Below, in pieces: positions 2,552 to 22,497 of a stretch of 58,057 nt of DNA. Each line of letters starts with the position of its first letter. Within the stretch, counting starts at the first letter, position 1. Origin of the DNA: a virus; the IMG/VR virus record IMGVR_UViG_3300018914_000025; one strand, written 5' to 3'. The position numbers and the translations under genes were made by a program. The notes beneath the pieces were generated by a model, which saw only the letters and a list, made by a program, of their open reading frames with translations, did no database searches and was not told the origin of the DNA.

Positions 2552-2566
2552 GATACGTTTCGTATC
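2552..2566. promoter_or_regulatory. GATAC-N5-GTATC palindrome, site 1 (GATACgtttcGTATC)
   Basis: Perfect half-sites in the intergenic region upstream of the 2432->189 gene string. Confidence 0.6.
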
Positions 2567-2593
2567 ATCGACTGCATCAAAACAGCTGCCCGG

Positions 2594-3271
2594 TTACTCC
2601 CCGGCTGTAGATCCGCTCTGAATCAAATACACGTTTCGCTGCTGCTTACCCCAACGCAGCGCTGTATCGAGATCCTCCACGTACAGGTCGATCTTCCGCC
2701 CTCGGACCGCGCCGCCCTTATCCTCGACAACGCGGAGCCCGATGCCCTCGATATACACCACGCTGCCCGGCGGCAGGATGCTGAGATCCGCTGCGATCGT
2801 CACGCCCTCCGCCGCAGGCCTACCGCTGTACGTGATCCCATATCCGGGGTCCCCCGGTCGCTTGCCGGTTGACTCGTAGCCTGCGGTGTACGCTGTTACT
2901 GTGAAAAGACCCAGATGAGTTCGATTACGGTGACCCCTGTCAGGAATCCGATGAGAAAACCCTTTAGCCGTGGGTTGCTTACCTGCGTGGACAGCGCCTG
3001 ACGCGCCTTGCGTTCTTTCAACCACGCTTTTAATATCTTGTCCCGTTCGGCGCGTGCCTGCGCCAACTCCTCCGCCAGCTTTCTCCGAACCGCGTCTCCC
3101 ATGTTCGCCCTCTCCTTTTTTGATTTCCGCAGAATTTGTTTGACTCGTTCCCGGTGCCGGTCTTGCTGATGCCGTTTGTACCCTTTCCGAACCTGGTGCT
3201 TTCCCATCGTAAGACCCCCATAGTGCGAGCAGCAGGTACGCTGCCGCCAGTATGCTCGTCCTTTTTGTCAT
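2594..3271 (-). CDS. Secreted or membrane-anchored 3D-domain protein (MltA/RlpA-like cell-wall-binding fold)
   Basis: C-terminus FTVTAYTAGYESTGKRPGDPGYGITYSG...IDLYV matches the 3D-domain pattern. N-terminus MTKRTSILAAAYLLLALWG looks like a signal or anchor. Its ATG forms an ATGA overlap with the Dam gene stop. Confidence 0.7.
   Translation of the reverse strand: MTKRTSILAAAYLLLALWGSYDGKAPGSERVQTASARPAPGTSQTNSAEIKKGEGEHGRRGSEKAGGGVGAGTRRTGQDIKSVVERTQGASGAVHAGKQPTAKGFSHRIPDRGHRNRTHLGLFTVTAYTAGYESTGKRPGDPGYGITYSGRPAAEGVTIAADLSILPPGSVVYIEGIGLRVVEDKGGAVRGRKIDLYVEDLDTALRWGKQQRNVYLIQSGSTAGE
2896..3207 (-). CDS. Alternative-frame ORF nested in the 3D-domain gene (charged coiled coil plus C-terminal TM helix)
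   Basis: 103-aa same-strand ORF with a GGGGG RBS about 8 nt upstream. Its sequence (AEELAQARAERDKILKAWLKERKARQAL...GFLIGFLTGVTVIELIWVF) looks more protein-like than the linker of the annotated frame. Confidence 0.3.
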   Translation of the reverse strand: MGKHQVRKGYKRHQQDRHRERVKQILRKSKKERANMGDAVRRKLAEELAQARAERDKILKAWLKERKARQALSTQVSNPRLKGFLIGFLTGVTVIELIWVFSQ

Positions 3272-3705
3272 GAACCCTCCTGTTTCGTGCCTCTGAAAAT
3301 CACAACAGCGCTGGGGAATGGTGCGTTCCACTTACTCCCCCCGAACTTTATTCGTCCTCGGATGAATCGAATTTCGCCCTTCATACAGTAGTCGTGCCAC
3401 CACCCGGCATCAGTACGAGCAGGTAACAAGCAAACAACAGTCGCACCCGCCTGAGAGGACTCATATGCTTTTTTGACCCACTTACTGATAGCACGTCCGT
3501 AAGGAGGATTCATCCAGCACACGCCGGTCCAATCCTGTTGCAGTCCATCTTTTTCCGGGGTGAAGTATTCCGCACATTTTGCGTTTTCTGGCAACGCACA
3601 AACGTCTAGCGTGAAGTGAAACTCTTGATTAAGTCTGTCAAAAAAATCTTGTGGGGTTGCCCAAACATCTGTATTTGAAGTGAACAAGCCTTTGTTTATT
3701 GCCAC
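3268..3705 (-). CDS. DNA N6-adenine methyltransferase (phage Dam type)
   Basis: WMNPPYGR catalytic motif in a small phage Dam-like protein. Start placed at a GTG 5 nt after AGGAGGGG, just past the upstream stop (ORF track ATG at 3747 is the alternative). Confidence 0.85.
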   Translation of the reverse strand: MAINKGLFTSNTDVWATPQDFFDRLNQEFHFTLDVCALPENAKCAEYFTPEKDGLQQDWTGVCWMNPPYGRAISKWVKKAYESSQAGATVVCLLPARTDAGWWHDYCMKGEIRFIRGRIKFGGSKWNAPFPSAVVIFRGTKQEGS

Positions 3706-3707
3706 AT

Positions 3708-4223
3708 TTACCCCTCCTGAAGAATTGCTTTGATCGCTTCCTGCCACTTTAATTTCGTGGGGTTGTCGCCCATGTACAGCCGGATGATGTTCTGCAACGC
3801 GATTTCGTTTTTCTGGATGAGGCCGCTGTTTACAAGCAGGGCGATCCAGTTATGCGGGGCGTACCGAGTAGCGTATTGAAAGAAACTGCGTTCTGATAAC
3901 GCACTCAGAGGCTCTACGGCTTTCAAGTAGATCAAGAACTGCACGGTGTAGTTAAAAAGATCGCCCACCGCGTTGTTGAGCCCTTCGCCTTTGACCTGCA
4001 GCTCGCCACGGGTCAACCAGGTGCGGATGCGGTCCAGCTTCTTCTCGACCTCCCACTCCCAGATCGGTCGGCCGTGCTTCATGAGACCCCTCATAAATCG
4101 CGAGTCGTAATCATGGTCTTTCTGAACGTGAATCTCTGTTTGCCGCGCCAGGAATTCGTCCCAGTCACGCGGCGGCTTATCCGCGGAGTATCGTGTTTTC
4201 GCTTCGGTATCCAAACTGCACAC
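3708..4223 (-). CDS. DUF1599/MazG-like helical protein (nucleotide-modification-associated), tentative
   Basis: Pattern KDHDYDSRF...KKLDRIRTW...DLFNYTVQFLIYL resembles DUF1599-type proteins; start uncertain. Confidence 0.4.
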   Translation of the reverse strand: MCSLDTEAKTRYSADKPPRDWDEFLARQTEIHVQKDHDYDSRFMRGLMKHGRPIWEWEVEKKLDRIRTWLTRGELQVKGEGLNNAVGDLFNYTVQFLIYLKAVEPLSALSERSFFQYATRYAPHNWIALLVNSGLIQKNEIALQNIIRLYMGDNPTKLKWQEAIKAILQEG

Positions 4224-4464
4224 CCCCTGGCGTATAATCGTGAAATTCCGCTGCTTCCTCCACCTTCAACTGCTGCAGGATGCGCTCGATGCGAACGTCC
4301 CCCAGCCCGAGCGTTTTGCGCGCCGCTTTGATCGTCATTTCAACCCCCAGCTGGTACGCAGCCTCTACCGCGACGCCCCACTCCTGCGGAGTAAACGACT
4401 TGCGCTGCGCGAGTTTCTGCGCGGCTTTTTCCCGCCGCCGGCGTTCTGCTCTGTTCATGCTCAT
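4177..4464 (-). CDS. hypothetical protein
   Basis: ORF starting MSMNRAERRR, with an ATGA overlap to the upstream gene stop. Confidence 0.5.
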   Translation of the reverse strand: MSMNRAERRRREKAAQKLAQRKSFTPQEWGVAVEAAYQLGVEMTIKAARKTLGLGDVRIERILQQLKVEEAAEFHDYTPGGVQFGYRSENTILRG

Positions 4465-4712
4465 CCCCACTTTCTGAAACAGGCGTCCAGCAGGCTTTTT
4501 GCGTAGCGCCCCATCGGACGGGTCTGCTGTGGCCCGGTTCGCTTGTCCCGGCGGTGGCGGCCCACCACCCAGGCAACGCGCAGCTGATTGAACTTCCCGG
4601 GAACCTTGGGCTGTACCCCGAAGGTCCCGACCACGATGCCCGGTTCGCGCTGGTGGATCATCGTGCTGATTTTCTTTGAATGCGTCTTCTTGGGAGCTGT
4701 AGTTCGTTGCAT
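4461..4712 (-). CDS. hypothetical basic protein
   Basis: Start at MQRTTAPKK preceded by AAGGAGAG; the longer ORF-track start would cover palindrome site 2. Confidence 0.5.
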   Translation of the reverse strand: MQRTTAPKKTHSKKISTMIHQREPGIVVGTFGVQPKVPGKFNQLRVAWVVGRHRRDKRTGPQQTRPMGRYAKSLLDACFRKWG

Positions 4713-4737
4713 TACAGTATCACTCTCCTTGTTGTTT

Positions 4738-4752
4738 GATACAATTCGTATC
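4738..4752. promoter_or_regulatory. GATAC-N5-GTATC palindrome, site 2 (GATACaattcGTATC)
   Basis: Perfect half-sites between the clamp-like gene and the next gene. Confidence 0.6.
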
Positions 4753-4770
4753 GCAATGAGCATACTTCTT

Positions 4771-5406
4771 CTAGCGTTTCACTGGCAGCAATAAAGCTGT
4801 GACGCCGTTGTCTGTCTTTAAAGCAAACGGACTCAATGGATTGTTGAAAACGATCTGAACGTGGTTCGGTTTGAAATCTTTAATCAGATTCAAAGCATCG
4901 ATCATGTATGAGGCATTGTAATAAACAGGTGTGTCACCCAGCGAATCCTGATCAATAACTGCGGGTAGTTCATGCTGGTACTCACTACGATCGTTTTTAG
5001 CCCCCATCAGGAACCGATCGGATCTTATCGCCATGTATGCGATAGGACCGTGCTTATCTTTCATCAACTCGGCTACCTTGTTGGCTTGAATCCACTCCCC
5101 AATGACCTCTTTTAACATCGCGGCACTGGAACATACCGTGACTGTCGTTCTCCATTCCACCGGGATAACTCGACTCGTATCAGGGTAATTACCATGAATC
5201 GGTGCTTTTGTCTTTACATCCAACACCACAGGCTCAGGGGCGGAATGCCCTTCTTCAATCACCACCAACCGGTGAGAATCTGTAACAATCAGAGATCCGT
5301 CAGGCGAGTGGTAAGCCCCTTTCAAAATAGGCCTTGCCTCACTTTTACCTGCAAATTTCACCGCGTGTTTCATCGCAATTTCATATCGTTCCCACTTCGT
5401 CAACAT
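4771..5406 (-). CDS. Sliding-clamp (DnaN)-like protein, short form
   Basis: RPILKGAYHSPDGSLIVTDSHRLVV resembles the DnaN N-terminal motif (..TDGHRLA). Start at MLTKWERY after GGAGG. The 211 aa length is well below a ~370-aa bacterial beta clamp. Confidence 0.5.
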   Translation of the reverse strand: MLTKWERYEIAMKHAVKFAGKSEARPILKGAYHSPDGSLIVTDSHRLVVIEEGHSAPEPVVLDVKTKAPIHGNYPDTSRVIPVEWRTTVTVCSSAAMLKEVIGEWIQANKVAELMKDKHGPIAYMAIRSDRFLMGAKNDRSEYQHELPAVIDQDSLGDTPVYYNASYMIDALNLIKDFKPNHVQIVFNNPLSPFALKTDNGVTALLLPVKR

Positions 5407-5419
5407 AAACCATTCCTCC

Positions 5420-5434
5420 GATACGTTTTGTATC
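5420..5434. promoter_or_regulatory. GATAC-N5-GTATC palindrome, site 3 (GATACgttttGTATC)
   Basis: Perfect half-sites between the polymerase stop and the clamp-like gene RBS. Confidence 0.6.
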
Positions 5435-5446
5435 ACGACGGGCGCA

Positions 5447-7828
5447 CTACACCCCTCGTTTTCCTTTCAGCCATTCCTCGACGTTCATTTTCTTGCCCCA
5501 GGCGTACCCGACGGACGCCTCGGCCTCGATCGGCACCGGGAAGTCCGGCAGCGGTGGCTTTTCCATCACAGACTTGATCCACGCGCAGGCTTTTTCCACT
5601 ACGTCCGGGTCGTCGTCCATTTCGAAGATGATCTCGTCATGGATCTGCGCGATCATGTCTGTTTTCCCGTGCTGGAGAGGACCGGTGCCCCGTGCGATCT
5701 CTTCGTACACCTCGTTCTGCGACCGCTTCATGATGTCTGCAGCCGACCCCTGGATCGGCGTGTTCGCTGCCTGCCGCGCAGCACTGGATCTGTCGTACTT
5801 GTTCGTGCTGTTGATCCCCGGCAGCATCCGGATGTAACCATAGATCGTCTGCACGTATCCATCCTCGCGGGCTTGCAGCGCGATCTCCTCCTGAAAGACT
5901 GGAATCTTCGGATACGATGCCTTTACCGCATTGACGATTGCCAGGCACTCATCCAGCGTCTTTCGGATCTTGTACTCGGTTTTGAACGTCTTTTGCAGGG
6001 CGTGCTCCGTGCCGCCGTAGCTGATTCCGAAGTTTCCGGCCTTCGCGTTCGTTCGCTCGACTTTCGTGATTTCGCTTTCTGGCTTTCCGGTCAGCGTCGA
6101 CGCTGTACGCTTGTGCATGTCCCCGCCGGTGCGGAAAATATCGATCATCACTTCATCGCCTGATTTCCAGGCCATCAGTCGCAGCTCGAAACCTGAGAAG
6201 TCGATGAAAAACAAGATTTTTCCGGGGCGCGGCACGTAGAAATTCCGGATTCCGAATTTGTCTTTGTCCAGCCGCGGCACGTTTTGGCCGTTCGGGTTGA
6301 AGCTGTTGCACCGCCCCGTCTCCGTAAACGGGCTGTACCCTGCGTGTATCCGGCCAGAGACCTCATTCAGGTACTTCTCTCGGCCAACGATGTGCGATGA
6401 CAGCAGCGTGCTGTACTTTTGGATGTTCTCCAGCTGGGTGATCAGCCGCAGCCCCTGCTCTTTGTACGGGTGCGGCGCCCGCCGGCGTATGCGTATCGCT
6501 TGCCGCTCCTCTTTGCTCAGGTCAGGGTCCTCGTCCGGATCTCTCGTTTCCCAGTCTTCCGGCAACTGTACTGCGAGGTACTTCTCTTCGTCGATCGTCT
6601 CCAGGTTGTTTTCGAGCATGAAGCGCATGTCGATCAGCGCTTCCTCATCCAGGCTGGGATCTCCGGTCTTTTCGCTCCACTTTGCGGCCGGCAGCTTCAT
6701 GTAATCGAAGATCAGGCTTTTGACCTCGCCCGTCTTCCCTGACTTCCCGGGGTTCAGGTCCAGATCGAATGTTTCTTTTGCGATCCGCTTGATCTCTTCG
6801 GCCGCCTGCTCCTGCATGATCTCGGCCTCTTCGCGTTTCTGCTGCGCGAGGTTCTGATCCCAACCCATGCCCCAGTACTCCATGAGCCCGATCACGCGGC
6901 CGAACGGCATTTCGATGTTATGGAGCCACTCCCAGTACATCGGGATCTGCTTCGCGACCTCTCCCCAGTACAGGTAGTGCTGGACGGCGTAGTCCGCGTC
7001 CTCCGCGCTGTAGATCAACCCGTCGCCCTGGGAAGCATCGATCTCGTCGAAGAACTTTGCACCGTGTTTCGCCAGCAGCTGTGAAAATTCATTCATTTCG
7101 ACTCCGAAGATCCGCTTTGTGGCCGGCTTCAGACCCCATCCTTTCGTCGGCTTCTTCGGGTCTTCAATTTTGTGCGGCGCCGCCACCTGCAGGCAACGTA
7201 CCCACATCACCAGAGGATCGGCCACCGGCATCATGATGTATTTCGCGTACTTGGCCGCGAACTTCGTTTCGAAAGCCAGGTTGACCGCGATTTTCACGAT
7301 CTTGTCGTTCCGGAAGAAGAACCGGTCCATGATGTCGAGGAACAGCCTTCGGGCTTCGTCTCGTGACAGCTGCGGCTCGAACACCTTCCCTACCTTGTGA
7401 CTGATCGGGACAACCCGGGATTCGTGCGGCGCCGCAGAGATTGATGCTGTGCATATGTCGGCTTTCCAGGGATCAAGAGGTGTTTTCAGGAACTCCTCTT
7501 TTCGCAGCATTTGTTCTTCCCAATCAAGTGCGAAATATTTTTGCCGTGTCTCTTCACTCGCGGCCGTCTCCCAGTCGAAGCCGCCGAGCCCCGTCTCCTG
7601 ACAACGCTGCAGGTACTCGATCAGCTCCTCTTTGGTGGTGATGGCCTTGTAGTCTTTCACCTGCTGCTGGGGCAGGGGCGGCCATTTGATGCCGAAGTCC
7701 CCGGGCTTACGCCTTTTTACCGTCTCCTCCAGCGTTTTGACAGGGATCTCTTTTCCGTCGAGCGTAACCTTCTTCGGCACTGTGCTGGCGAGCGTCTTCG
7801 GCTTTGCGAATAGTGATCCGAGATTCAT
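5447..7828 (-). CDS. Family A DNA polymerase with 3'-5' exonuclease domain
   Basis: Motif A DFSGFELRLMA, motif B RTNAKAGNFGISYG, motif C QIHDEIIFE; exo I-like FDWETA near the N-terminus. Confidence 0.95.
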   Translation of the reverse strand: MNLGSLFAKPKTLASTVPKKVTLDGKEIPVKTLEETVKRRKPGDFGIKWPPLPQQQVKDYKAITTKEELIEYLQRCQETGLGGFDWETAASEETRQKYFALDWEEQMLRKEEFLKTPLDPWKADICTASISAAPHESRVVPISHKVGKVFEPQLSRDEARRLFLDIMDRFFFRNDKIVKIAVNLAFETKFAAKYAKYIMMPVADPLVMWVRCLQVAAPHKIEDPKKPTKGWGLKPATKRIFGVEMNEFSQLLAKHGAKFFDEIDASQGDGLIYSAEDADYAVQHYLYWGEVAKQIPMYWEWLHNIEMPFGRVIGLMEYWGMGWDQNLAQQKREEAEIMQEQAAEEIKRIAKETFDLDLNPGKSGKTGEVKSLIFDYMKLPAAKWSEKTGDPSLDEEALIDMRFMLENNLETIDEEKYLAVQLPEDWETRDPDEDPDLSKEERQAIRIRRRAPHPYKEQGLRLITQLENIQKYSTLLSSHIVGREKYLNEVSGRIHAGYSPFTETGRCNSFNPNGQNVPRLDKDKFGIRNFYVPRPGKILFFIDFSGFELRLMAWKSGDEVMIDIFRTGGDMHKRTASTLTGKPESEITKVERTNAKAGNFGISYGGTEHALQKTFKTEYKIRKTLDECLAIVNAVKASYPKIPVFQEEIALQAREDGYVQTIYGYIRMLPGINSTNKYDRSSAARQAANTPIQGSAADIMKRSQNEVYEEIARGTGPLQHGKTDMIAQIHDEIIFEMDDDPDVVEKACAWIKSVMEKPPLPDFPVPIEAEASVGYAWGKKMNVEEWLKGKRGV

Positions 7829-7838
7829 GGAGTGCCTC

Positions 7839-8903
7839 CTACAGCAGGGCCTTCAGCAGATGGCGCATGTGCTCATTCTGTGACGTGAGGGCCTCGATTT
7901 TACGGGTCAGGGAGTCGACAACCTCTTTGTACGACTCAATTTCGACTACATGACGCTTTTTGATTTCCTGCAGCTCGTCCTTCAAATGATCGAAGCTGAT
8001 CTTCTCACGATTAGTGGGGCCCGCACTCGTAGTTTCAGATACAGCATCCGCGCTTTTCTTCAACAGCCCCCATCGCTTCTTCGCGTGGTAGACGGCCGCT
8101 TTTGTGACGTTACATAGTTTCGATATTTCCGCATCGGTTTTTCCTTCCGCGACTAGTCGCTCCAGGGTTTCTTTCTCCAATTTGGCTTTTGCCACTTCTT
8201 CTTCTCCTTTCACTCCACGGTATCTATTCAGCAACTCTCCGATTCTAGCTACTATTCTGGAAATGTGAGCCTGTGAGACTCCCATTTCCTTTGAAATTTC
8301 GTCCTGCGTCATTCCTGACATTTTAAGCCGAATGACCTTCTGATCTCTTTCATTCAGCGTTTGTAGGAACTCTGATACAAAAACAGAGGAATAGTCCTCC
8401 TCCACCGGTATTGTGTTGTAGACACTCGTTTTTTCGTTGTCCAGATGTTCGGGAGCAGCGTCAGCATAGACCAGGTTAGAGGCTTTGATGTATTTAAGCG
8501 CCGCCTCCACTTCACACATTGGCCGAACCAACCGCTCGGAGATCTCTTCTGCGCTCATCGATTCAAGCCCCTGGAGTTTTATTTGATTGGCGACCTCGTA
8601 AACCGGTCGGGAGGGCCGTAATAAAGCTCCTTTGTCGCGTAGAAATCTTAGAACCTCCCCCTGGATCATCGGAACCGCGTAGGTGGAGAATCTCTTTACT
8701 CCTTCAAACAACGTCGGGTCGTATCTGTCAAACGCCCGGATCAGTCCGACGCACCCCTCGCTGTAAATCTCGTCGTAATCAATACCTAAAGCTGCAGCAC
8801 GTCGCCTGAACTTTTGCGCCACCATGTGAACCAGTTTGAGGTGAGAAGGAATCACCTCGTCCTTATAGCCCAGGTGCGGGTTATAATCACGAATCGCTGA
8901 CAC
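7839..8903 (-). CDS. Sigma-70 family sigma factor with a C-terminal extension (extra HTH plus coiled coil)
   Basis: Region 2-like FSTYAVPMIQGEVLRFLRD and region 4.2-like MTQDEISKEMGVSQAHISRIVARI. About 130 further residues contain KLCNVTKAAVYHAKKRWG and a heptad-like tail. Confidence 0.85.
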   Translation of the reverse strand: MSAIRDYNPHLGYKDEVIPSHLKLVHMVAQKFRRRAAALGIDYDEIYSEGCVGLIRAFDRYDPTLFEGVKRFSTYAVPMIQGEVLRFLRDKGALLRPSRPVYEVANQIKLQGLESMSAEEISERLVRPMCEVEAALKYIKASNLVYADAAPEHLDNEKTSVYNTIPVEEDYSSVFVSEFLQTLNERDQKVIRLKMSGMTQDEISKEMGVSQAHISRIVARIGELLNRYRGVKGEEEVAKAKLEKETLERLVAEGKTDAEISKLCNVTKAAVYHAKKRWGLLKKSADAVSETTSAGPTNREKISFDHLKDELQEIKKRHVVEIESYKEVVDSLTRKIEALTSQNEHMRHLLKALL

Positions 8904-8914
8904 GTACTCACCCC

Positions 8915-13377: not shown

Positions 13378-14895
13378 TCACCAGCGAATGCCGCTGAGAA
13401 AATCTGCGATCTCGTCGCGTTCTGTTCTCGGCTTCTTTGGTACCTTCAGCCCCAGGCGTTTGTACACCGACCGGCGGCTGCTGTACTGGCTGCGGAACAC
13501 TCCGACGTTGTAGTCCACGTAGTCGAACCAGATCGCCTTTTTGTCGGGGTTCGCCGGGTCCGGCCGCATAATCCGGCCGATCTCTTGCTCCACCGCCGCT
13601 CCGTTTCGGCTGCCGGATGCATCCCCGCGTTTCGGTGTGACCATGTGCCCGATCGTCAGGTGTGGCATGTCCAGACCTTCCCGGGCAAGCTGCGTCGCGA
13701 TGAGGACGTCGACCTCTTTCCGATAGGCGGCATCGAGGATCTCCTTTCGCTCCTTCTTCGGCAGCTTCCCATGCACCACCGATACGCGCAATTTCCCTTT
13801 TGATACGTTTTGTATCATAGACTGCAGCAGATAGCCATACTCGACCCGTTCAGTCAGAACGATGCTGTAGTTTCCAGGCGCGTGCTTTACGATGTTCTCT
13901 GCTACCAGCTGGGCGCGCTTCTCGTCGTTGATCAGCGCCTCCATCAGGGCATTGTAGTTGAGGTCTTCCCCGCCGGCATCCACGCTGTCGATCTCGTTGC
14001 GGTCACTCGCCTGCTCGTAGTCGAATTCGGTGTACACGAACCGGATCTCCGGCTTGATCAGACGCCCTGACTCGTACAGTCCGTCACGCTTGATCTCGTA
14101 GACGATCGGACCCACCCCGGCGTACAGGTAGCACTCCAACTTGTCTTTTCGCTCCGGAGTCGCTGTGAGCCCCAGTACGTTGGCCGCCGGGAACTGCCCG
14201 GCCACTTCGAGAAACGCAGGTGCTGGGAAGTGGTGCGCCTCGTCGATCACCAGTGTTCCGATGATCGGTTTCAGCGTTTCGACCAGGTGTGGGTGTGCCT
14301 GCAGCGTTTGAACCGTTGCGACGATCAGCTTCCCGTCTCCCCACTCTTGCTTCCCGTCTCCGAGAATCCCGACTCTCCCGACGCCGAGCAAGTACCGCTC
14401 TGCGTTCTTCGCTGACTGATACATCAGGTCTTTTGTGTGGGTCAGCCAGAGCGCCGGCCGTCCCTTTTCCCAGATGTACCACATGCCCATCAGCGTCTTT
14501 CCGGACCCTGCGGGTGCGACCAGAACGCCGTTTTTCAAAAGGACGGCTTTGATCGCAGGGCGCTGGTCTTCCTTCGGGATGTACTTCGCGTTCCACTCCC
14601 CGAAGTCCACCTTCCACCCTTCCGTCAGCCGCTTTGTGACGACTTCGTGAGGGTTAATCCCGTGTTTCAGGAGGATGTCCACAAGGCTGACGTAGAACCC
14701 CCGCGGAACGATCAAGTCACCTCGGTCGTACGTGTAGAGCGTCAGCTTTTTATCGATGCCCCACGTCGGCCGCTTTTTCGACTTCCTTTCGATATACACG
14801 GGATTGTCCAGTGTCAGCGCTGCGGTGATCTCCTCCCGTAAGGGCACCGACGCTCCGCGAATCCGGATATTGTTGCTTACAAGTATCTGCAGCAC
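13378..14895 (-). CDS. SF2 DEAD/DEAH-box DNA helicase
   Basis: Walker A VAPAGSGKT, motif II VIDEAHHF, motif III GLTATP, then a C-terminal RecA-like domain. Confidence 0.85.
   Translation of the reverse strand: MLQILVSNNIRIRGASVPLREEITAALTLDNPVYIERKSKKRPTWGIDKKLTLYTYDRGDLIVPRGFYVSLVDILLKHGINPHEVVTKRLTEGWKVDFGEWNAKYIPKEDQRPAIKAVLLKNGVLVAPAGSGKTLMGMWYIWEKGRPALWLTHTKDLMYQSAKNAERYLLGVGRVGILGDGKQEWGDGKLIVATVQTLQAHPHLVETLKPIIGTLVIDEAHHFPAPAFLEVAGQFPAANVLGLTATPERKDKLECYLYAGVGPIVYEIKRDGLYESGRLIKPEIRFVYTEFDYEQASDRNEIDSVDAGGEDLNYNALMEALINDEKRAQLVAENIVKHAPGNYSIVLTERVEYGYLLQSMIQNVSKGKLRVSVVHGKLPKKERKEILDAAYRKEVDVLIATQLAREGLDMPHLTIGHMVTPKRGDASGSRNGAAVEQEIGRIMRPDPANPDKKAIWFDYVDYNVGVFRSQYSSRRSVYKRLGLKVPKKPRTERDEIADFLSGIRW
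13802..13816. promoter_or_regulatory. GATAC-N5-GTATC palindrome, site 4 (GATACgttttGTATC), intragenic
   Basis: Perfect half-sites inside the SF2 helicase ORF, where they encode ..IQNVS.. Confidence 0.5.
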
Positions 14896-16954: not shown

Positions 16955-17229
16955 GACACAACCCCCTCACGGAGTTTCCGCCAGTGCTCCGGACTGTGTT
17001 TGCTTGTCTGCTGTACCCAGCCCTTCCCTTCGATGAAATCCTTTTTCCCTGCGTACACTTCGTCAGAATGATCGACATAGGACGGTTCCCCAGGGCAATC
17101 CGTAGTCAGCGATCCTTCAACTAGTCCGCATCTTATACATACCGCAAGGCCGCCGTCACACACGTTGCAGTGAGATTCTTTGCACGTGCCGTGACGTACC
17201 ACAAACTCGCAGGTAAAGTCGTGTTTCAT
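16951..17229 (-). CDS. Cys-rich small protein (putative zinc-binding)
   Basis: 92-aa ORF with CNVCDGGLAVCIRCG...DCPG; 4-nt overlaps on both sides. Confidence 0.5.
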   Translation of the reverse strand: MKHDFTCEFVVRHGTCKESHCNVCDGGLAVCIRCGLVEGSLTTDCPGEPSYVDHSDEVYAGKKDFIEGKGWVQQTSKHSPEHWRKLREGVVS

Positions 17230-17870
17230 ACCGCTGTCACCTCGCTTTTCCCGTTCTTCTGCGTCACTTCCAGCGACACGTCCCCGATCGTTGCCAGGTG
17301 AGCGTTATGCGTGATGAGCACGATCTGACGGCCGAACTTCTCGCTGTACTCCTTCAGGAAGTAGGCGACATTCGGCGCATACTCCTGTGATACATGTTTC
17401 CCTACTTCGTCGAGCATCAACGGCCCCTGAACCCCGGTCAACTCCCCGACCGCCAGCCGAAGCGCGAGGCTCACCACGTCGGCCACCCCGCCTCCCCGGT
17501 CGTAATCCGGCGGCTTCAACTGTGTTCGTACCCCTTCGCTTTCGAGGAAGTACTCAGCGACCGGCTGATTCCCTTTGACGTCGAGCTCGATTTCGAACCG
17601 GTAGTCCTTCCCGAACACGACTGACAGGGCGCTGGTGACGATCTCTTCGATTCGTGTCTTTGCCTGCTGCCGGGCGAAGTCGCTCGTTTTCTGCAAGAGG
17701 ATCTGCACCAGGTCATAAACCCCGAGCTTCTCCTCCGCGAACATCTTTCGCTGCAGGGCGTCCGCTCGCTGCTTCTCCAGCAGTTGTTTCTGCCCTTCCT
17801 TGGCAGCGATCCGCTGGGCTGCTTGTCTGACATCGGCTTTTGCTTTGTCGATGGCGTACATGGGGATCAC
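17226..17870 (-). CDS. SbcC/Rad50 C-terminal ATPase lobe (separate ORF)
   Basis: Signature-like RGGGVADVVSLALRLA, Walker B LMLDEVGKH, H-loop LITHN. Confidence 0.7.
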   Translation of the reverse strand: MIPMYAIDKAKADVRQAAQRIAAKEGQKQLLEKQRADALQRKMFAEEKLGVYDLVQILLQKTSDFARQQAKTRIEEIVTSALSVVFGKDYRFEIELDVKGNQPVAEYFLESEGVRTQLKPPDYDRGGGVADVVSLALRLAVGELTGVQGPLMLDEVGKHVSQEYAPNVAYFLKEYSEKFGRQIVLITHNAHLATIGDVSLEVTQKNGKSEVTAV

Positions 17871-18130
17871 TCCCCTTTCTTTGCCAGCATGTCCTGGACA
17901 ATAAGCTGGTTACAAAGATGTGTAAACTGAAGAAAATTTTTTTGATCTCCGGTCAGCTTGTTGTAAACCATCCCGCAACCCTTCACCAATCCGATAAAAA
18001 ACTCGGTTGCGTCGACCTCATCCAAGGTAAACTGATGATTTTCACTATCAGGGTCAAACAGGTCCATAAGGGCGTTATTTACAGCAAAAGCATACATCTC
18101 GTTTTTCGTAATGTTTTGCATATGATTCAC
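17867..18130 (-). CDS. hypothetical protein inserted between the SbcC pieces
   Basis: 87-aa ORF that is not coiled coil and is visibly more A/T-rich than its flanks; 4-nt overlaps. Confidence 0.45.
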   Translation of the reverse strand: MNHMQNITKNEMYAFAVNNALMDLFDPDSENHQFTLDEVDATEFFIGLVKGCGMVYNKLTGDQKNFLQFTHLCNQLIVQDMLAKKGE

Positions 18131-18360
18131 ACCCTCGGAATGAGACTTTCCACTCGCTGCAGATCCTGCTCGACCTGAGACTGCAGCTGTGCGATTACGT
18201 CCCCGATCGTATCCGGGGTCACGCCTTCTGCCATCATCTGCTGCTCGACTTCCTTCAGCTGTGCTTCGGCGTTCGCTTTTTGGGTTTCGGCTACCGTTTT
18301 TGCGGTGGCCGCTTTTTGCAGGTTGGTTTTCGCCAGATTGATTCGCATATTAATGTCCAC
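18127..18360 (-). CDS. Coiled-coil protein (possible returning coiled-coil arm of SbcC)
   Basis: 77-aa heptad-rich ORF immediately after the zinc-hook-bearing ORF. Confidence 0.45.
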   Translation of the reverse strand: MDINMRINLAKTNLQKAATAKTVAETQKANAEAQLKEVEQQMMAEGVTPDTIGDVIAQLQSQVEQDLQRVESLIPRV

Positions 18361-19768
18361 GGTGATTACCTCCCGTTATTGGTTGTTCGCAGATCGGGCA
18401 CACGGTCATGCCCGCCCAGATCTCGTCGAGTTCTTTTTGCGCTTGTGCTGCCGAAACGTCCGCAGCCTGAAGATGCCGCTCCGCGCTTTGCAGCGCGCTT
18501 TGTTTCGTGACGTACACGGTTCGTAGGGTACGCAATGATTCGAGGCGATTGCTGCTGGATTCCGCTTGCTGCAGCAGGCTCTCCGCTTCCGGGATCTTGC
18601 TGAACATTTCGACCCATTCACGCTGACGCTGTAACGCCGCGCGCGCCTCCGTGTGTCGTACCTGCAGGGTTCTCAGATTTGAAATGCGTTCCGCTGAACC
18701 CCCGACACTGTGAAGGACCGCTTCCGCAGCGTCCAAGTCCTTAGTCGCATGAAGAACGCCAGCCGCCCTACTTACATCATCTGAATGTTTTTGATATGAT
18801 GAGCGTAAGATATTAAGAGTAGACAACCTCTTGCTGTTTGCTTCGATGATCGACACCTCTGCTGCAATGTTGTCTACTTCCCGGTACCTGTCCAGTTCGT
18901 CGGAAAGCCTTGTTACTGTGGCGGTAACCTTTCCGTACTGGCGATAAAGGTCCAGCAGCGTGTCGTAGCGCTTCTGGGCTTTTTCTATGTCCTGCAGGTC
19001 TTCTTCCAAGTCTGGGATTACTGCCAGCTCTTCCAGGCGTCCGCCCAGCTCCTCCAGCAGTCTCGTCAGGTTCCAGTGCGTGATCTTGAAGTCCGAAAGC
19101 CGTTTGCTCTTGTCGTACGCCTTGTCGATCTCACTGACCAGGTACTCGCAGGCCTCCAGCTGTTGTTTGAGCACTTCCAGGTCGTTGAACTCCTGCAGCT
19201 GTGCATCGATCCGCTCGATGTCCTTCTCTGCCTGCGAGCGCTCCTGACGCGCTGCGTAGGTATCCTTTGCGACCGATTTTGTTGCCAGGTCGACCACTTC
19301 CGTACCGGCCAGCTTGCCGAGGATCTTGGCACCCGCACTCGCTGTCTCAGAGATCAAGAACGGCGCCTCCAGCTGGAACGCAAAATTCAACGCTGTTTCG
19401 AAGTCCCCGAATGTCTGCTTGGTGATCCCGAGAGCCTGCTTTACTTCCTCTGGTACTTCCGCCTTTTCGAAGGGCTCCGCGATCGTCGACAACTGATAGG
19501 TCGTCTTTCCTTTTCGGCGGGTCTTTGTTACCGTGACGCCGGTGTCCAGCAGGATCTCTACCTTCGCCTCCCCTACAGCCTCGTTCACAAACGCCTCCCC
19601 GGAGGGCTCCCCGAATGCTACCCATTTGAGCGCCCGGAGTATCGCCGTCTTCCCGCTGTCAGACGGTCCCGTGATCACGTTCAACCCTGGGCACAGCCGG
19701 ATGAAACTCGAAACATGTGACTGGAACCCCGTGATTCGGATTTCTTCAATCTGCGGCAAGGATCTCAC
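18350..19768 (-). CDS. sbcC: SbcC/Rad50 N-terminal ATPase lobe plus coiled coil, ending at the zinc hook
   Basis: Walker A ITGPSDSGKTAILRAL, a long coiled coil, and a CPIC (CxxC hook) 12 residues before the stop. Confidence 0.8.
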   Translation of the reverse strand: MRSLPQIEEIRITGFQSHVSSFIRLCPGLNVITGPSDSGKTAILRALKWVAFGEPSGEAFVNEAVGEAKVEILLDTGVTVTKTRRKGKTTYQLSTIAEPFEKAEVPEEVKQALGITKQTFGDFETALNFAFQLEAPFLISETASAGAKILGKLAGTEVVDLATKSVAKDTYAARQERSQAEKDIERIDAQLQEFNDLEVLKQQLEACEYLVSEIDKAYDKSKRLSDFKITHWNLTRLLEELGGRLEELAVIPDLEEDLQDIEKAQKRYDTLLDLYRQYGKVTATVTRLSDELDRYREVDNIAAEVSIIEANSKRLSTLNILRSSYQKHSDDVSRAAGVLHATKDLDAAEAVLHSVGGSAERISNLRTLQVRHTEARAALQRQREWVEMFSKIPEAESLLQQAESSSNRLESLRTLRTVYVTKQSALQSAERHLQAADVSAAQAQKELDEIWAGMTVCPICEQPITGGNHRGH

Positions 19769-19781
19769 CTCACTTCTGTTC

Positions 19782-19796
19782 GATAAAATTTGTATC
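19782..19796. promoter_or_regulatory. GATAC-N5-GTATC palindrome, site 5 (GATAAaatttGTATC, one mismatch)
   Basis: Lies 14 nt upstream of the SbcC N-terminal ORF start. Confidence 0.5.
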
Positions 19797-19877
19797 GATT
19801 TTTGAAACTTGCGAGACGATGTTCCGTATATCTCAGCAAGACCACCTCCTTTCGAGGTTACTTTTTATATCTTCTGC

Positions 19878-19892
19878 GATACTTTTTGTATC
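19878..19892. promoter_or_regulatory. GATAC-N5-GTATC palindrome, site 6 (GATACtttttGTATC)
   Basis: Perfect half-sites just downstream of the cro-like gene; the palindrome extends to GCGATAC..GTATCTTCGC. Confidence 0.6.
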
Positions 19893-19902: not shown

Positions 19903-20100
19903 TTAAAAAAGATCAGGGAACAGCTCTTCCTCTGATTTATCGTAGAATTTCGCCAGCTGCTTACTGAGTGCCCTGCTCGGGTTTCGGGTCCCGGCTTCCA
20001 GTTTTCTCAGATAAATTTCTGAGATATGGAGAGCTTGCGCGGCCGATGCCTGACTCAGATTTCGATTCAATCGGGCTTTTTTTAACGCTTCCCGCCTCAT
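19903..20100 (-). CDS. XRE-family HTH protein (Cro-like position)
   Basis: LKKARLNRNLSQASAAQALHISEIYLRKLEAG; divergent from the cI-like gene. Confidence 0.8.
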   Translation of the reverse strand: MRREALKKARLNRNLSQASAAQALHISEIYLRKLEAGTRNPSRALSKQLAKFYDKSEEELFPDLF

Positions 20101-20145
20101 AGCACACCTCCCTAGCTACAAATTGTGAAAATAACACTAGAAAAC

Positions 20146-20160
20146 GATACAAAATGTATC
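20146..20160. promoter_or_regulatory. GATAC-N5-GTATC palindrome, site 7 (GATACaaaatGTATC) in the divergent switch region
   Basis: Perfect half-sites directly abutting a TATAAT hexamer (20161-20166), between the divergent XRE genes. Confidence 0.65.
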
Positions 20161-20200
20161 TATAATGATAATCATGTACACATTGATCGGAGGGCTTATC

Positions 20201-20527
20201 ATGTTAGGTCAAAGACTGAAGGAATTGCGTGGATCTCGTACACAAGATGAAATTGCGGAAAAACTGGAGATTCCAAGGGCTCGGTACAGTCATTACGAGA
20301 ATGAGCGTAACAAACCGGAGCCTGAAATGCTTATCAAAATGGCGCTGCTGTTTGATACCAGCATTGATTACTTACTGGGGCTTACTGAGGAACGGTTCCC
20401 GACTTACCGCACCGCCGCTCATGACGATCGCGCCCGAGAAGATCGGGAATTCGTTCAGATATTCATGAACTTGTCTCCTGAGAAGAAACAGGCTCTTGTT
20501 CACCTGGTTAAGACCTTTGCTTGTTGA
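20201..20527 (+). CDS. XRE-family HTH repressor (cI-like position)
   Basis: MLGQRLKELRGSRTQDEIAEKLEIPRARYSHYENERNKPEPEMLIKMALLFDTSIDYLLG; GGAGGG RBS before this ATG (ORF track starts at 20165). Confidence 0.8.
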   Translation: MLGQRLKELRGSRTQDEIAEKLEIPRARYSHYENERNKPEPEMLIKMALLFDTSIDYLLGLTEERFPTYRTAAHDDRAREDREFVQIFMNLSPEKKQALVHLVKTFAC

Positions 20528-20909: not shown

Positions 20910-20923
20910 TCCGTTCGGACTTC

Positions 20924-21076
20924 TTACCAACCGGGCCCCTCTTGGTTTGTTGTTACCGGAGTAGGCTCAGTGATCGGAAGTGGTGCGACGCCCCAGCCAG
21001 GTCCTTCTTGTGCAGAAGCGCTGACCGGAATAACGAGCGCGATCGCAAACAATACGAAAATCAAAAGTTTTTTCAT
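20924..21076 (-). CDS. Secreted signalling pro-peptide (50 aa) with two QEGPGW copies
   Basis: Hand translation: MKKLLIFVLFAIALVIPVSASAQEGPGWGVAPLPITEPTPVTTNQEGPGW*. AGGTGG RBS; signal peptide with an ASA-type cleavage site; terminator downstream; 74 nt after the RRNPP-like receptor. It falls below the ORF-track size cutoff. Confidence 0.7.
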   Translation of the reverse strand: MKKLLIFVLFAIALVIPVSASAQEGPGWGVAPLPITEPTPVTTNQEGPGW

Positions 21077-21124
21077 ACGATGCTACCACCTATCATGTGA
21101 ACTTGTTTCATGAAAATAGTAAAC

Positions 21125-21139
21125 GATACAATAAGCATC
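21125..21139. promoter_or_regulatory. GATAC-N5-GTATC palindrome, site 8a (GATACaataaGCATC, one mismatch)
   Basis: Between the receptor stop and the pro-peptide start. Confidence 0.5.
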
Positions 21140-21150
21140 GGTCAATCTAG

Positions 21151-22497
21151 TTATACGATACAAATTGTATCGTACTTTCTCGCCCTTTCGTACTCCTCCA
21201 TGGCAAATGTACATCTATCGATCTGTGCAGGTGTCGCGAAAGTAATATTTTTCAATAAAAGCGTCACACATCGGATAGTAACCACCGGCATCTTAAACCG
21301 GGCGGACAAGTCAATAGCATACAGCAGATCCTCAATAGCTGACCCCCCCATGCCAACATGAAAAAAATACTTTGACCTGTAATACCTGAAGTATGCAATG
21401 TATTTCGCGCTTAGTGGGTCGTTAAGCGAATGCAGCTGTCTAATTTCCGCATCAAAATCCGATAAAAATGCTGGGATCTGTTCATACTTTTCAAAATTTA
21501 CAAGGGACTTAATTACAGTTGTCAAATTTCTGCAACGGTTCGGCTGTTGCTTAATAAAGGCCATCAAGGCTTCAATGTTTTCCGTGTTTCCCGCAGAAAT
21601 CTCCACCGTCATTCGATTGACTGCAGCAAGGGAGCTGTAGAGATCACTTACTCCTTTTGAATACTCATCGATCAGCGCTAACGCTGTTTTGAAATCCTTT
21701 TTCTCTTCTGACACAGCGCCTAGATAGAAAAGTGCGCCTGCATACGATTCGACGTCCATACCGACCGCAATTCCAGCTAATTCCTTTGCGTATTTTTCCA
21801 CACCGCTCCAATGTTCGATTGCGTAAAATACCGCTAGAACACGTAGGTAAGCCTCCGTTTGCATTAGACCTTTCAGGTGTTTTAAATACTCTGTGAGTTT
21901 AACAGCTGCCTCATAAGCCGTGATCAAGTCATGATCCCTGACTATTAAAAAACTTCGATAAAAACTGACAGCGAGGTCTGGAGACATCCGATTTGACTCT
22001 TTCTCTATGACTTTGTTATAAAACCGCAGCGCCTCGTCATGATGACCTTTTCCGAACAGCGACTCCGCGATGGCGAAGATGATGTCGAGGTTTCCAGGGA
22101 TGGCTGTAAGCTCATTCATGGCCTCTTCTACAAGATCCGTCAAACCCAGCTCGTAGCATCGTACCACGAACTCCTCTGTTTTTTTGCGCAGCCGCTTCCC
22201 TCCCTTCCCCCAACACTCACCACTGAACAGGTGGTAAAAATACCCGGGTGGAAGTTCCAGCGCCTCTGTGACTGCATCCAGGACCTCCAGCGAGAATGTA
22301 CGACTGCCTCCCAGCATGCGGCTCAGATCCGACTGGCTCACATTTTTCTGCGCGGCAATGGAGACAGGCGACACCCCTCTTTCTCGCATCGCGTTTGTGA
22401 TTTCCTCCCGTAACGTGCTGTATCGGCGGTCACTCGTTAACGTCATCCCCAAAACAAAAAACCCCCTCGCTTGCCATCTTGTACACACATTATACAA
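21151..22497 (-). CDS. RRNPP-family (AimR/NprR/PlcR-like) peptide receptor: N-terminal HTH plus TPR-like repeats
   Basis: N-terminal XRE-type HTH (VSPVSIAAQKNVSQSDLSRMLGGSRTFSLEVLDAVTEAL), then about 370 aa of helix-repeat sequence rich in A/L/Y/E. The pro-peptide gene lies immediately downstream. The real start may be the internal MTLTSDRR (22446). Confidence 0.75.
   Translation of the reverse strand: MYNVCTRWQARGFFVLGMTLTSDRRYSTLREEITNAMRERGVSPVSIAAQKNVSQSDLSRMLGGSRTFSLEVLDAVTEALELPPGYFYHLFSGECWGKGGKRLRKKTEEFVVRCYELGLTDLVEEAMNELTAIPGNLDIIFAIAESLFGKGHHDEALRFYNKVIEKESNRMSPDLAVSFYRSFLIVRDHDLITAYEAAVKLTEYLKHLKGLMQTEAYLRVLAVFYAIEHWSGVEKYAKELAGIAVGMDVESYAGALFYLGAVSEEKKDFKTALALIDEYSKGVSDLYSSLAAVNRMTVEISAGNTENIEALMAFIKQQPNRCRNLTTVIKSLVNFEKYEQIPAFLSDFDAEIRQLHSLNDPLSAKYIAYFRYYRSKYFFHVGMGGSAIEDLLYAIDLSARFKMPVVTIRCVTLLLKNITFATPAQIDRCTFAMEEYERARKYDTICIV
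21157..21171. promoter_or_regulatory. GATAC-N5-GTATC palindrome, site 8b (GATACaaattGTATC)
   Basis: Perfect half-sites with extended arms TACGATAC..GTATCGTA; overlaps the last receptor codons (..DTICIV*). Confidence 0.6.

What the first reader, a model, noticed from the sequence alone, without database searches (positions are those of the whole stretch)
2552..21171. A 15-bp palindrome GATAC-W5-GTATC recurs at least nine times, only in the early/regulatory arm (operator or stoperator-like network)
Sites read directly are at 2552, 4738, 5420, 13802, 19782 (one mismatch), 19878, 20146, 21125 (one mismatch) and 21157. A degenerate copy lies at 56087. The spacer is always 5 nt and A/T-rich. A C or T usually precedes GATAC. 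Seven sites sit in short intergenic gaps ahead of gene blocks. These gaps precede the MTase string, the clamp-like gene, the SbcC operon, the cro/cI divergent promoter next to a TATAAT, and the pro-peptide gene. One site lies inside the helicase ORF and one overlaps the receptor stop. My scan of the 24-56 kb structural region found no full sites. Dyad symmetry suggests a dimeric HTH repressor, and four XRE proteins are encoded. One such protein could silence the whole early arm and gate the pro-peptide gene.
Basis: seen in the sequence. Interest (0 to 1): 0.62.

Follow-up and report, generated by a model that had tools for sequence, protein, structure and literature searches.

The report
Xre-type repressor operators spread along early operon
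The repeated 15-bp palindrome is the binding site of this phage-plasmid's own Xre/CI-type repressor, a well-known kind of switch, but here four extra copies sit far from the switch between and inside early genes, where they most likely act as extra brakes on transcription.

Summary
GATAC-N5-GTATC occurs 7 times exactly (0.01 expected) and 9 times with up to one mismatch (0.9 expected), all between 2552 and 21171. Seven of the nine sites lie in the 6% of the window that is non-coding.

The motif is the operator of the PBSX Xre repressor family. Every homologue of the cI-like gene (20201-20527) that carries the recognition helix RARYSHYEN has clustered GATA[C/A]-N5-[G/T]TATC dyads beside it, and the last dyad abuts the repressor gene's TATAAT. 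This includes Bacillus subtilis Xre itself. Homologues with other helices have other dyads. The motif also occurs in relatives that lack the RRNPP receptor.

In 19 of 20 surveyed virus records that carry this operator, all exact sites lie within about 350 bp; the twentieth has one stray site. This 57.9-kb circular phage-plasmid instead has:
- operators inside three promoter spacers: PcI, the pro-peptide promoter, and weakly a promoter ahead of terS;
- four exact sites 6-17.6 kb down the early operon with no sigma-A promoter nearby, of which two flank an inserted clamp-like gene and one is written in rare codons inside the helicase gene.

The repressor-operator assignment is well supported by comparison. 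A roadblock ("stoperator-like") role for the distal sites is inference only. I rate it a new variant of a known kind, of moderate interest.

The parts
20201..20527 (+). cI-like Xre-family repressor gene (108 aa), the proposed binder of the dyad
   Evidence: Pfam HTH_3 at 6e-12. Recognition helix PRARYSHYENE is shared with all homologues that have GATA[C/A]-type operators, including PBSX Xre. Closest solved structure is the ICEBs1 Xre-family regulator 7t8i.
19903..20100 (-). cro-like HTH gene (65 aa), first gene of the early operon; probably binds the same operators
   Evidence: Pfam HTH_3 at 9e-13. Homologues lie divergent to the repressor gene in L001, L002, L164 and L165, with a conserved helix ISE[IV]Y[LV]RK and C-terminus LFPD[LI]F.
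20146..20160 (.). Main operator between cro and cI. It fills the spacer of PcI (TAGAAA-17-TATAAT, 20138-20166, + strand) and overlaps the weak candidate Pcro.
   Evidence: The same 'operator abutting TATAAT' arrangement is seen in L001, L164, L165, L166, L177 and PBSX-like contigs.
19878..19892 (.). Operator 10 nt after the cro stop, 268 bp from the main operator; the family's conserved 'downstream' operator
   Evidence: Equivalent sites lie 240-270 bp from the switch in L001, L002, L164, L165, L177 and the surveyed virus records.
19857..19871 (.). Degenerate partner site (two mismatches), 21 bp from 19878; doubtful
   Evidence: Weight-matrix score is only 8.0 bits.
19782..19796 (.). One-mismatch operator (GATAA half-site) just upstream of the ribosome-binding site of the SbcC-like gene
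   Evidence: GATAA is an accepted half-site in relatives, and the site scores 26.0 bits.
21125..21139 (.). One-mismatch operator filling the spacer of the pro-peptide promoter (TTGACC-18-TACTAT, 21145-21116, - strand)
   Evidence: A pair at the same 32-bp spacing is conserved in L001 (10871/10903) and L180 (1568/1600).
21157..21171 (.). Operator just upstream of the -35 of the pro-peptide promoter; also encodes D-T-I-C-I at the receptor's C-terminus
   Evidence: The L001 receptor also ends in DTICIV with the same operator.
13802..13816 (.). Distal operator inside the helicase gene, codons (M)IQNVS
   Evidence: It uses the disfavoured codons ATA, CAA, GTA and TCA; the probability of this codon set given the peptide is about 5e-4. 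Relatives read MVEKLA at this position and have no dyad.
5420..5434 (.). Distal operator between the PolA stop and the GGAGG ribosome-binding site of the clamp-like gene
   Evidence: The clamp-like gene is absent at this position in Pol-module relatives G003-G007.
4738..4752 (.). Distal operator between the clamp-like gene stop and the ribosome-binding site of the 83-aa gene
2552..2566 (.). Distal operator between the 3D-domain gene and the block of small ORFs plus the C5-methyltransferase, a block absent in relatives
   Evidence: A + strand promoter-like TTGACC-18-TATCAT ends 4 nt before it.
56087..56101 (.). Weak operator (two mismatches) in the spacer of TTGACA-18-TATATT (56109-56080, - strand) ahead of terS
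   Evidence: 13.3 bits.
56118..56132 (.). Weak partner operator 31 bp from 56087
   Evidence: 14.2 bits.

Best explanation
GATAC-N5-GTATC is the operator of the element's own Xre-type repressor, the 108-aa HTH protein encoded at 20201-20527. It is probably shared with the divergent 65-aa Cro-like protein.

Inferred mode of binding: a dimer places its two recognition helices (RARYSHYE) on the two GATAC half-sites, which lie one helical turn apart.

Shown by sequence position: at three promoters the 15-bp site fills the spacer between the -35 and -10 boxes. These are PcI (and the overlapping early promoter), the promoter of the secreted pro-peptide gene, and, more weakly, a strong promoter ahead of terS. 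A bound repressor there would exclude RNA polymerase.

Inferred for the remaining sites: a further site 268 bp away, after cro, is a conserved feature of the family. Five more sites (19782, 13802, 5420, 4738, 2552) lie inside the roughly 20-kb leftward early transcription unit, mostly in the few short gaps just ahead of ribosome-binding sites, with no promoter beside them. These most likely serve as auxiliary operators where bound repressor blocks elongating polymerase. That would keep the replication, clamp-like and methyltransferase genes silent while the element lives as a plasmid prophage.
For: Statistics:
- 7 exact sites against 0.01 expected, and 9 against 0.9 with one mismatch.
- 7 of 9 sites lie in the 6% of the window that is non-coding.

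Co-occurrence and covariation:
- L001, L002, L164, L165, L166, L177 and L180 have 3-5 GATA[C/A]-N5-[G/T]TATC dyads around their cI/cro homologues, the last dyad abutting TATAAT.
- About 72 of 120 virus contigs found with GATAC-N5-GTATCTATAAT have 2-5 clustered sites, and 47 have an adjacent ORF with the helix RA[RK]YSxYE.
- The roughly 30-kb contigs among them encode a protein that public sources name B. subtilis Xre.
- Homologues with other helices have other dyads; for example, L007 (SRATYAQYE) has GTTGC-N5-GCAAC.
- The RRNPP receptor is absent from L002, L164, L165 and L166, which still carry the motif.
- A matrix trained only on relatives ranks the window's nine sites first.

Promoter positions.

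Distal sites look selected and are not at promoters:
- The helicase site is written in rare codons, P about 5e-4.
- There is no good sigma-A promoter on the - strand beside any distal site.
- In 19 of 20 surveyed virus records with this operator, all exact sites lie in one cluster of about 350 bp or less; G015 has one stray site.
Against: - No binding or expression data exist.
- The switch region has only one operator where most relatives have three or four, so the switch logic may differ from the family norm.
- The candidate early promoter is weak (8 of 12 matches, by eye), so the assumption that one long transcript crosses all distal sites is unproven.
- A phage sigma factor (7839-8903) could use promoters that the scans do not recognise.
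- Site 2552 sits 4 nt after a + strand promoter-like sequence, so at least that site might be an ordinary promoter operator.
Confidence: 0.6

Rival explanations
1. The distal sites are ordinary operators of internal promoters that the scans cannot see, for example promoters read by the phage sigma factor, or weak sigma-A promoters. The repressor would then control several separate transcription units, as phage P1's C1 repressor does, rather than blocking elongation.
For: The three clearest promoters in the network all carry the operator in their spacer. A + strand TTGACC-18-TATCAT ends 4 nt before site 2552. A sigma factor gene lies in the early arm. P1, also a phage-plasmid, has 22 dispersed C1 operators (PMC8546580).
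Against: No -35/-10 pair in either orientation flanks 4738, 5420, 13802, 19782 or 19878. Sites 5420 and 4738 lie in gaps of 40 and 58 bp directly against ribosome-binding sites, leaving no room for a promoter downstream of the site.
Confidence: 0.2
2. The distal sites have little regulatory role of their own. They are leftovers of recombination between phages of the same immunity type, or they came in with inserted gene cassettes, and so mark module boundaries.
For: Sites 5420 and 4738 bracket a clamp-like gene that Pol-module relatives lack. Site 2552 sits at the border of a methyltransferase block that relatives lack. Sites 19782 and 19878 sit at the border between the immunity module (shared with L001) and the replication module (shared with G003-G007).
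Against: The helicase site is not at a module border and is kept in rare codons. Other inserted genes (sigma factor, 12739-13362) have no flanking sites. Four perfect 10-base matches would decay without selection. Short gaps are also the only non-coding space available.
Confidence: 0.08
3. The distal sites act as looping anchors or a repressor reservoir that raises repressor occupancy at the main switch, rather than as roadblocks.
For: The family already uses a second operator 240-270 bp away and pairs at 21-33 bp, which suggests cooperative binding.
Against: Distances of 6-17.6 kb are long for useful looping. The repressor has only about 40 residues beyond the HTH, and no oligomerisation domain was detected. 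Placement directly ahead of ribosome-binding sites is not explained.
Confidence: 0.08
4. The dyad is the box of the RRNPP-type peptide receptor (21151-22452), or it works as an RNA hairpin in the early transcript.
For: Two sites lie between the receptor and pro-peptide genes, where PlcR-type boxes are found. On the early-gene sense strand the six sites from 2552 to 19878 have A-rich spacers and can form 5-bp hairpins of -4 to -7 kcal/mol.
Against: The motif is present with cI/cro in L002, L164, L165, L166 and PBSX-like elements that have no receptor. The half-site bases are invariant rather than showing compensatory changes. Many family sites lie in untranscribed promoter DNA. There is no Rfam match.
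Confidence: 0.04

Closest known systems
[quoted passage not shown] 1990; McDonnell and McConnell 1994, cited in PMC11172241; the operator description is from my memory, as the paper was not readable here)
   Same: Same recognition helix (SRARYSHYEN) and the same 15-bp dyad GATAC-N5-GTATC. The repressor gene is divergent from the lytic genes, and the last operator abuts the repressor gene's -10 box.
   Different: PBSX-type elements and the other family members surveyed keep 3-5 sites within about 350 bp. This element has only one site in the switch itself. It adds sites at a quorum-peptide promoter, weak sites ahead of terS, and four exact sites 6-17.6 kb away inside the early operon. The proteins share only the HTH half.
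Stoperators of Cluster A mycobacteriophages (L5 gp71 type; PMC9283540, PMC6550527)
   Same: Repressor sites occur both at promoters and in short intergenic gaps inside transcription units, where they are thought to stop elongation. Here five sites have that placement.
   Different: Stoperators are asymmetric 13-mers bound by a monomer with two DNA-binding domains. There are more than twenty of them over the whole genome, and they are strictly oriented with transcription. Here the sites are symmetric dyads for an HTH_3 protein, few in number, and confined to one arm. The repressors are unrelated.
C1 repressor of phage-plasmid P1, with 22 dispersed operators (PMC8546580)
   Same: It is a plasmid prophage whose single repressor controls sites scattered over many kilobases. 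This element also carries an actin-like partition system; no integrase was found among the proteins scanned.
   Different: P1 operators are asymmetric 17-mers placed at promoters of separate operons. Here most distal sites have no promoter, and the protein family differs.
Lactococcal phage TP901-1 CI with operators OR, OL and OD (PMC7250872)
   Same: It is a Firmicutes phage switch with divergent promoters plus an extra operator a few hundred bp downstream inside or after the first early gene, like 19878 here. The operator layout of TP901-1 is from my memory; only the abstract of PMC7250872 was seen.
   Different: There are no operators many kilobases away, and the operator sequence and protein architecture differ.

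Membership tests
PBSX Xre-type repressor/operator switch | XRE (HTH_3) repressor with recognition helix RARYSHYEN | tested here: met
   The window protein reads PRARYSHYENE. It aligns with Xre and seven other homologues that have the same helix.
PBSX Xre-type repressor/operator switch | 15-bp dyad GATAC-N5-GTATC directly upstream of the repressor gene, abutting its -10 box | tested here: met
   20146-20160 is followed directly by TATAAT. The same arrangement is seen in relatives.
PBSX Xre-type repressor/operator switch | Three or four tandem operators 28-35 bp apart in the divergent region | tested here: not met
   Only one site lies in 20101-20200, and nothing else there scores above about 4 bits. 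L001 and L180 share this reduced layout.
PBSX Xre-type repressor/operator switch | An extra operator 240-270 bp away beyond the divergent early gene | tested here: met
   19878 lies 268 bp from 20146. Equivalent sites occur in relatives.
PBSX Xre-type repressor/operator switch | The repressor binds the dyads | not testable with these tools
   This needs EMSA, footprinting or ChIP.
Mycobacteriophage stoperator system | Repressor sites in short intergenic gaps inside transcription units, away from promoters | tested here: met
   2552, 4738, 5420, 19782 and 19878 lie in gaps of 40-161 bp with no flanking promoter.
Mycobacteriophage stoperator system | Asymmetric 13-bp site bound by a monomeric two-domain repressor | tested here: not met
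   The site is a symmetric dyad. The protein is a 108-aa HTH_3 protein with no similarity to that family's description (PMC9283540).
Mycobacteriophage stoperator system | Site orientation follows the direction of transcription | tested here: inconclusive
   The half-sites are symmetric. The spacers of the six sites 2552-19878 are A-rich on the early-gene sense strand, but this could simply reflect strand composition.
Mycobacteriophage stoperator system | Bound repressor stops elongating polymerase | not testable with these tools
P1 C1-type dispersed operator regulon | Each dispersed operator sits at a promoter of its own operon | tested here: not met
   Only 20146, 21125/21157 and 56087 are at promoter-like sequences. 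The distal early-arm sites are not, with 2552 a possible exception on the opposite strand.

The most novel reading that the evidence does not exclude
A symmetric, dimeric Xre-type repressor has been recruited as a multi-site elongation roadblock along a 20-kb early operon of a Firmicutes phage-plasmid. This would be an independent, convergent invention of the 'stoperator' strategy so far described for monomeric repressors of actinobacteriophages. The same repressor would also gate a quorum-peptide promoter and the late promoter.
Probability: 0.4. Interest if true: 0.6.

Novelty: new variant of a known kind. Interest (0 to 1): 0.45.

Why it matters
The motif and repressor belong to the founding member of the XRE family, so the basic switch is not new. 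Three points are useful.

1. The same operator and recognition helix are shared by PBSX-like elements and many Bacillales prophages. This defines a very broad immunity type and predicts cross-repression between resident prophages and incoming phages.

2. This element shows how such a switch can be extended, to a communication-peptide promoter, to the late promoter, and to sites inside an operon. If the distal sites are roadblocks, stoperator-like silencing is not limited to actinobacteriophages or to asymmetric monomer sites.

3. The sites flank recently acquired genes (a clamp-like gene and methyltransferases). This suggests a simple way for a plasmid prophage to keep new and possibly harmful cargo silent.

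Tried and rejected
- Near-identity search of the early arm against GenBank phages gave only a methyltransferase fragment.
- No whole genome is held for the window.
- Relatives of the PolA module (L008-L018, whole records G003-G007) were searched for any repeated dyad that might be 'their' equivalent network. None was convincing. TACG-N-CGTA (24 copies in G007) and CGCAGCTGCG (6 copies in G003) look like composition or coding effects and were not pursued.
- All other contigs carrying the clamp-like protein are 100% identical copies of this element, so conservation of the distal sites could not be tested.
- The closest repressor homologue anywhere in the protein collection is only 57% identical.
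- An apparent excess of extra half-sites near the distal sites was not significant (P = 0.13).
- A one-mismatch site in the L001 genome lies inside a long ORF and looks like chance.
- The RNA reading was checked: hairpins are weak, and there is no Rfam family or tRNA.
- The Aneurinibacillus plasmid CP080765.1 could be checked only over 20 kb, where its layout is canonical; the full record is not held.
- The 1994 Xre DNA-binding paper (PMC196788) is not held, and no open paper contains the operator string.


Full report
**1. The observation**

The pattern GATAC-N5-GTATC occurs seven times exactly in the 58,057-base window, at 2552, 4738, 5420, 13802, 19878, 20146 and 21157. Dinucleotide-preserving shuffles give 0.01. 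Allowing one mismatch adds 19782 and 21125, making nine sites against 0.91 expected; no shuffle exceeds four. With two mismatches there are 34 against 15.

The spacer is always five bases and mostly A/T, and C or T precedes each site. Single half-sites (GATAC or GTATC, 120 in all) are spread evenly over the window, so it is the dyad that is special.

With a curated gene list, 6.2% of the window is non-coding, and only 2.7% of the early arm 1-19768 is. Seven of the nine sites are entirely non-coding (P about 1e-7). In the early arm they occupy the three largest internal gaps plus the gap after cro.

**2. The setting**

The window is a JGI metagenome contig whose ends overlap by 127 bases, so the element is a 57,930-bp circle. 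Identical copies occur in sister samples. Pfam shows an actin-like partition ATPase, an FtsK-like protein and a relaxase-like protein, and no integrase among the 30 proteins scanned.

On the minus strand the gene order is as follows:
- a 65-aa Cro-like HTH gene (19903-20100);
- SbcCD-like genes;
- a helicase;
- a primase-MCM fusion;
- a sigma factor (7839-8903);
- a family A DNA polymerase;
- a clamp-like protein (4771-5406);
- small genes and methyltransferases;
- then, across the coordinate origin, an ArpU-like regulator, terS and the structural genes.

Divergent from cro lies a 108-aa HTH_3 protein, the cI-like gene (20201-20527). Further right lie a 50-aa secreted pro-peptide gene (20924-21076, minus strand), a 433-aa HTH-plus-TPR receptor, a LytTR regulator and a fourth XRE gene.

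**3. What the dyad is**

*Closest homologue.* The closest virus-contig homologue of the cI-like protein (L001, 52% identity) has the whole regulatory module and the same dyads at the same places:
- one abutting TATAAT ahead of its cI;
- one 269 bp away after cro;
- a pair 32 bp apart between the receptor and the pro-peptide gene.

L180 is the same.

*Homologues without the receptor.* L002, L164 (Cytobacillus), L165, L166 (Aneurinibacillus) and L177 (a 69-kb Aneurinibacillus plasmid with the same partition ATPase) match only in the HTH half. They still have three to five GATA[C/A]-N5-[G/T]TATC dyads, spaced 28-35 bp apart between cro and cI, with the last one abutting TATAAT and one more about 240-270 bp away. 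Tblastn finds no receptor in L002, L164, L165 or L166, and none is among L177's called genes.

*Covariation.* All these proteins share the recognition helix [ST]RARYSHYENE. Homologues with other helices have other dyads:
- L003: ARTTYAMYE;
- L007: SRATYAQYE, with GTTGC-N5-GCAAC of the same 5-5-5 geometry;
- L027 and L167.

About 72 of them carry two to five clustered exact sites, and 47 have an ORF with RA[RK]YSxYE next to them. The roughly 30-kb contigs among them encode a 113-aa protein that public sources name 'HTH-type transcriptional regulator Xre' of the Bacillus subtilis group. This is the PBSX repressor that gave the XRE family its name. Four of these dyads lie directly upstream of it.

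*Independent scoring.* A weight matrix built only from relatives' sites ranks the window's nine sites first, at 16-26.5 bits.

I conclude, with high confidence but without binding data, that the dyad is the operator of the window's Xre-type repressor, probably shared with Cro. It is not the box of the peptide receptor. From memory, Xre was shown in 1994 to bind four sites next to its gene. I could not read that paper, and no open paper contains the operator string.

**4. What is unusual here**

I searched 20 virus records that carry the exact operator (G001 and G008-G027; most are at least 89% complete, and G022 is 51%). In 19 of them all three to five exact sites lie within about 350 bp. One record shows the cluster twice, in two identical copies. 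G015 has a single stray site with a GC-rich spacer. G002, which uses the GATAA variant, is likewise confined.

The window differs in three ways.

*First, a reduced switch.* The switch itself has only one operator (as in L001 and L180). It fills the spacer of PcI (TAGAAA-17-TATAAT) and overlaps a weak candidate early promoter.

*Second, operators in other promoters.*
- Site 21125 fills the spacer of TTGACC-18-TACTAT, which reads into the pro-peptide gene, with 21157 just upstream.
- The next-best matrix hits, 56087 and 56118, lie 31 bp apart.
- Site 56087 fills the spacer of TTGACA-18-TATATT, the best promoter-like sequence found in the three stretches scanned. That promoter is followed by a terminator-like hairpin and then terS.

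*Third, distal sites.* Four exact sites lie 6-17.6 kb from the switch along the direction of early transcription, and 19782 lies just ahead of the SbcC-like gene.

**5. The distal sites**

None has a -35/-10 pair around it on the coding strand, and the whole early arm is poor in sigma-A-like promoters (4 found against 7.4 expected).

- *Site 5420.* It lies 12 bases after the polymerase stop and directly against the GGAGG of the clamp-like gene.
- *Site 4738.* It lies between the clamp-like stop and the ribosome-binding site of the next gene.
- *Comparison with relatives (G003-G007).* These share the SbcC-to-polymerase-to-3D-domain module at 41-76% protein identity, but they lack:
  - the clamp-like gene at this position (only G005 has a weak 25% match, elsewhere in its genome);
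  - the sigma gene;
  - the block to the left of 2552.

  So 5420 and 4738 bracket an insertion, and 2552 marks the border of another.
- *Site 13802.* It lies inside the helicase C-terminal domain and reads ATG ATA CAA AAC GTA TCA (MIQNVS). Relatives have MVEKLA there and no dyad. The codons used are minority codons in this element (ATA is 9% of Ile codons, TCA 15% of Ser, GTA 20% of Val, CAA 30% of Gln). The joint probability given the peptide is about 5e-4, which points to selection on the DNA.
- *Site 21157.* Likewise, this site is the codons DTICI at the receptor's end, a C-terminus shared with L001 despite 47% overall identity.

Four perfect ten-base matches where 0.01 is expected, together with this placement and codon evidence, make chance or neutral relics unlikely.

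**6. Mechanism**

*Shown by sequence and comparison:*
- which protein family goes with the dyad;
- where the sites sit relative to promoters and genes.

*Inferred:*
- A dimer binds each dyad.
- At PcI/Pcro, the pro-peptide promoter and the terS promoter, it excludes RNA polymerase.
- The site after cro and the pairs at 21-32 bp allow cooperative binding.
- The promoter-less sites inside the early operon stop polymerases that escape or start spuriously, much as stoperators are proposed to do in Cluster A mycobacteriophages (PMC9283540).

Such a backstop would suit a plasmid prophage that must keep a lytic replication module, a clamp-like protein and several methyltransferases off while its separate plasmid replication and partition genes stay on. 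Cro could use the same sites to shut down early transcription late in infection.

I put about 0.85-0.9 on the operator assignment and about 0.45 on the roadblock role.

**7. Rivals**

- *Internal promoters not seen by my scans.* These could be read by the phage sigma factor, or be like the + strand promoter-like sequence ending 4 nt before 2552. The network would then resemble P1 C1, which has 22 dispersed operators (PMC8546580).
- *Looping anchors, or relics of module exchange.* These are possible but explain less.
- *Receptor box.* This is contradicted by relatives that lack the receptor.
- *RNA hairpin.* This is weak for three reasons:
  - the stems never vary;
  - the free energies are small;
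  - no RNA family matches.

**8. Novelty**

The motif and its repressor are a known kind: the PBSX Xre switch, widespread in Bacillales. The spread of that operator to distant promoter-less positions, to a quorum-peptide promoter and to the late promoter was seen in no other surveyed family member. I know of no description of it. I therefore rate this a new variant of a known kind, of moderate interest, pending binding and transcript data.

Noticed in passing
window 56021-56109 (- strand): The best sigma-A-like promoter found in the three stretches scanned (TTGACA-18-TATATT) is followed about 40 nt later by a terminator-like hairpin with a T-run, and then by terS. This layout recalls late promoters controlled by antitermination. 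An ArpU-like regulator gene (56106-56504) ends inside the promoter.
   Followed up: partly
window 21154-21171; L001 10897-10917: The operator doubles as the last codons (DTICI, then V and stop) of the RRNPP receptor. The same C-terminus and operator are kept in L001, where the receptor is only 47% identical overall.
   Followed up: partly
window 4771-5406, 7839-8903, 189-2432, 3268-3747, 12739-13362: The clamp-like gene, sigma factor gene, C5-methyltransferase block, Dam-like gene and a 207-aa gene are absent from the five relatives that share the replication module, so they look like insertions. The 3D-domain/Dam region is called differently by JGI (split small genes), which may mean frameshifts.
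   Followed up: partly
window 2518-2547 (+ strand): A promoter-like TTGACC-18-TATCAT (10 of 12 matches) points rightwards, antisense to the 3D-domain gene, and ends 4 nt before operator 2552. It may be a repressor-controlled antisense promoter.
   Followed up: no
G007 (L041-L043) and G006 (L038-L040), whole records: TACG-N-CGTA occurs 24 and 13 times, mostly as TACGGCGTA, far above the roughly one expected. It may be a coding or composition effect rather than a site.
   Followed up: no
G003 (L029-L031) at 9159, 10015, 13117, 17519, 28955, 35767: The 10-bp palindrome CGCAGCTGCG occurs six times, dispersed over a 54.8-kb relative. It is unexplained.
   Followed up: no
window 1-127 and 57931-58057: The two ends of the window are the same 127 bases, so the element is a 57,930-bp circle. 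The early operon runs across the coordinate origin into the late genes on the same strand.
   Followed up: yes
L001 10657-10821; window 20924-21076: The pro-peptides of both elements end in, and contain a second copy of, [QE][ED]GPGW. The likely mature signal is therefore conserved between elements whose receptors are 47% identical.
   Followed up: no
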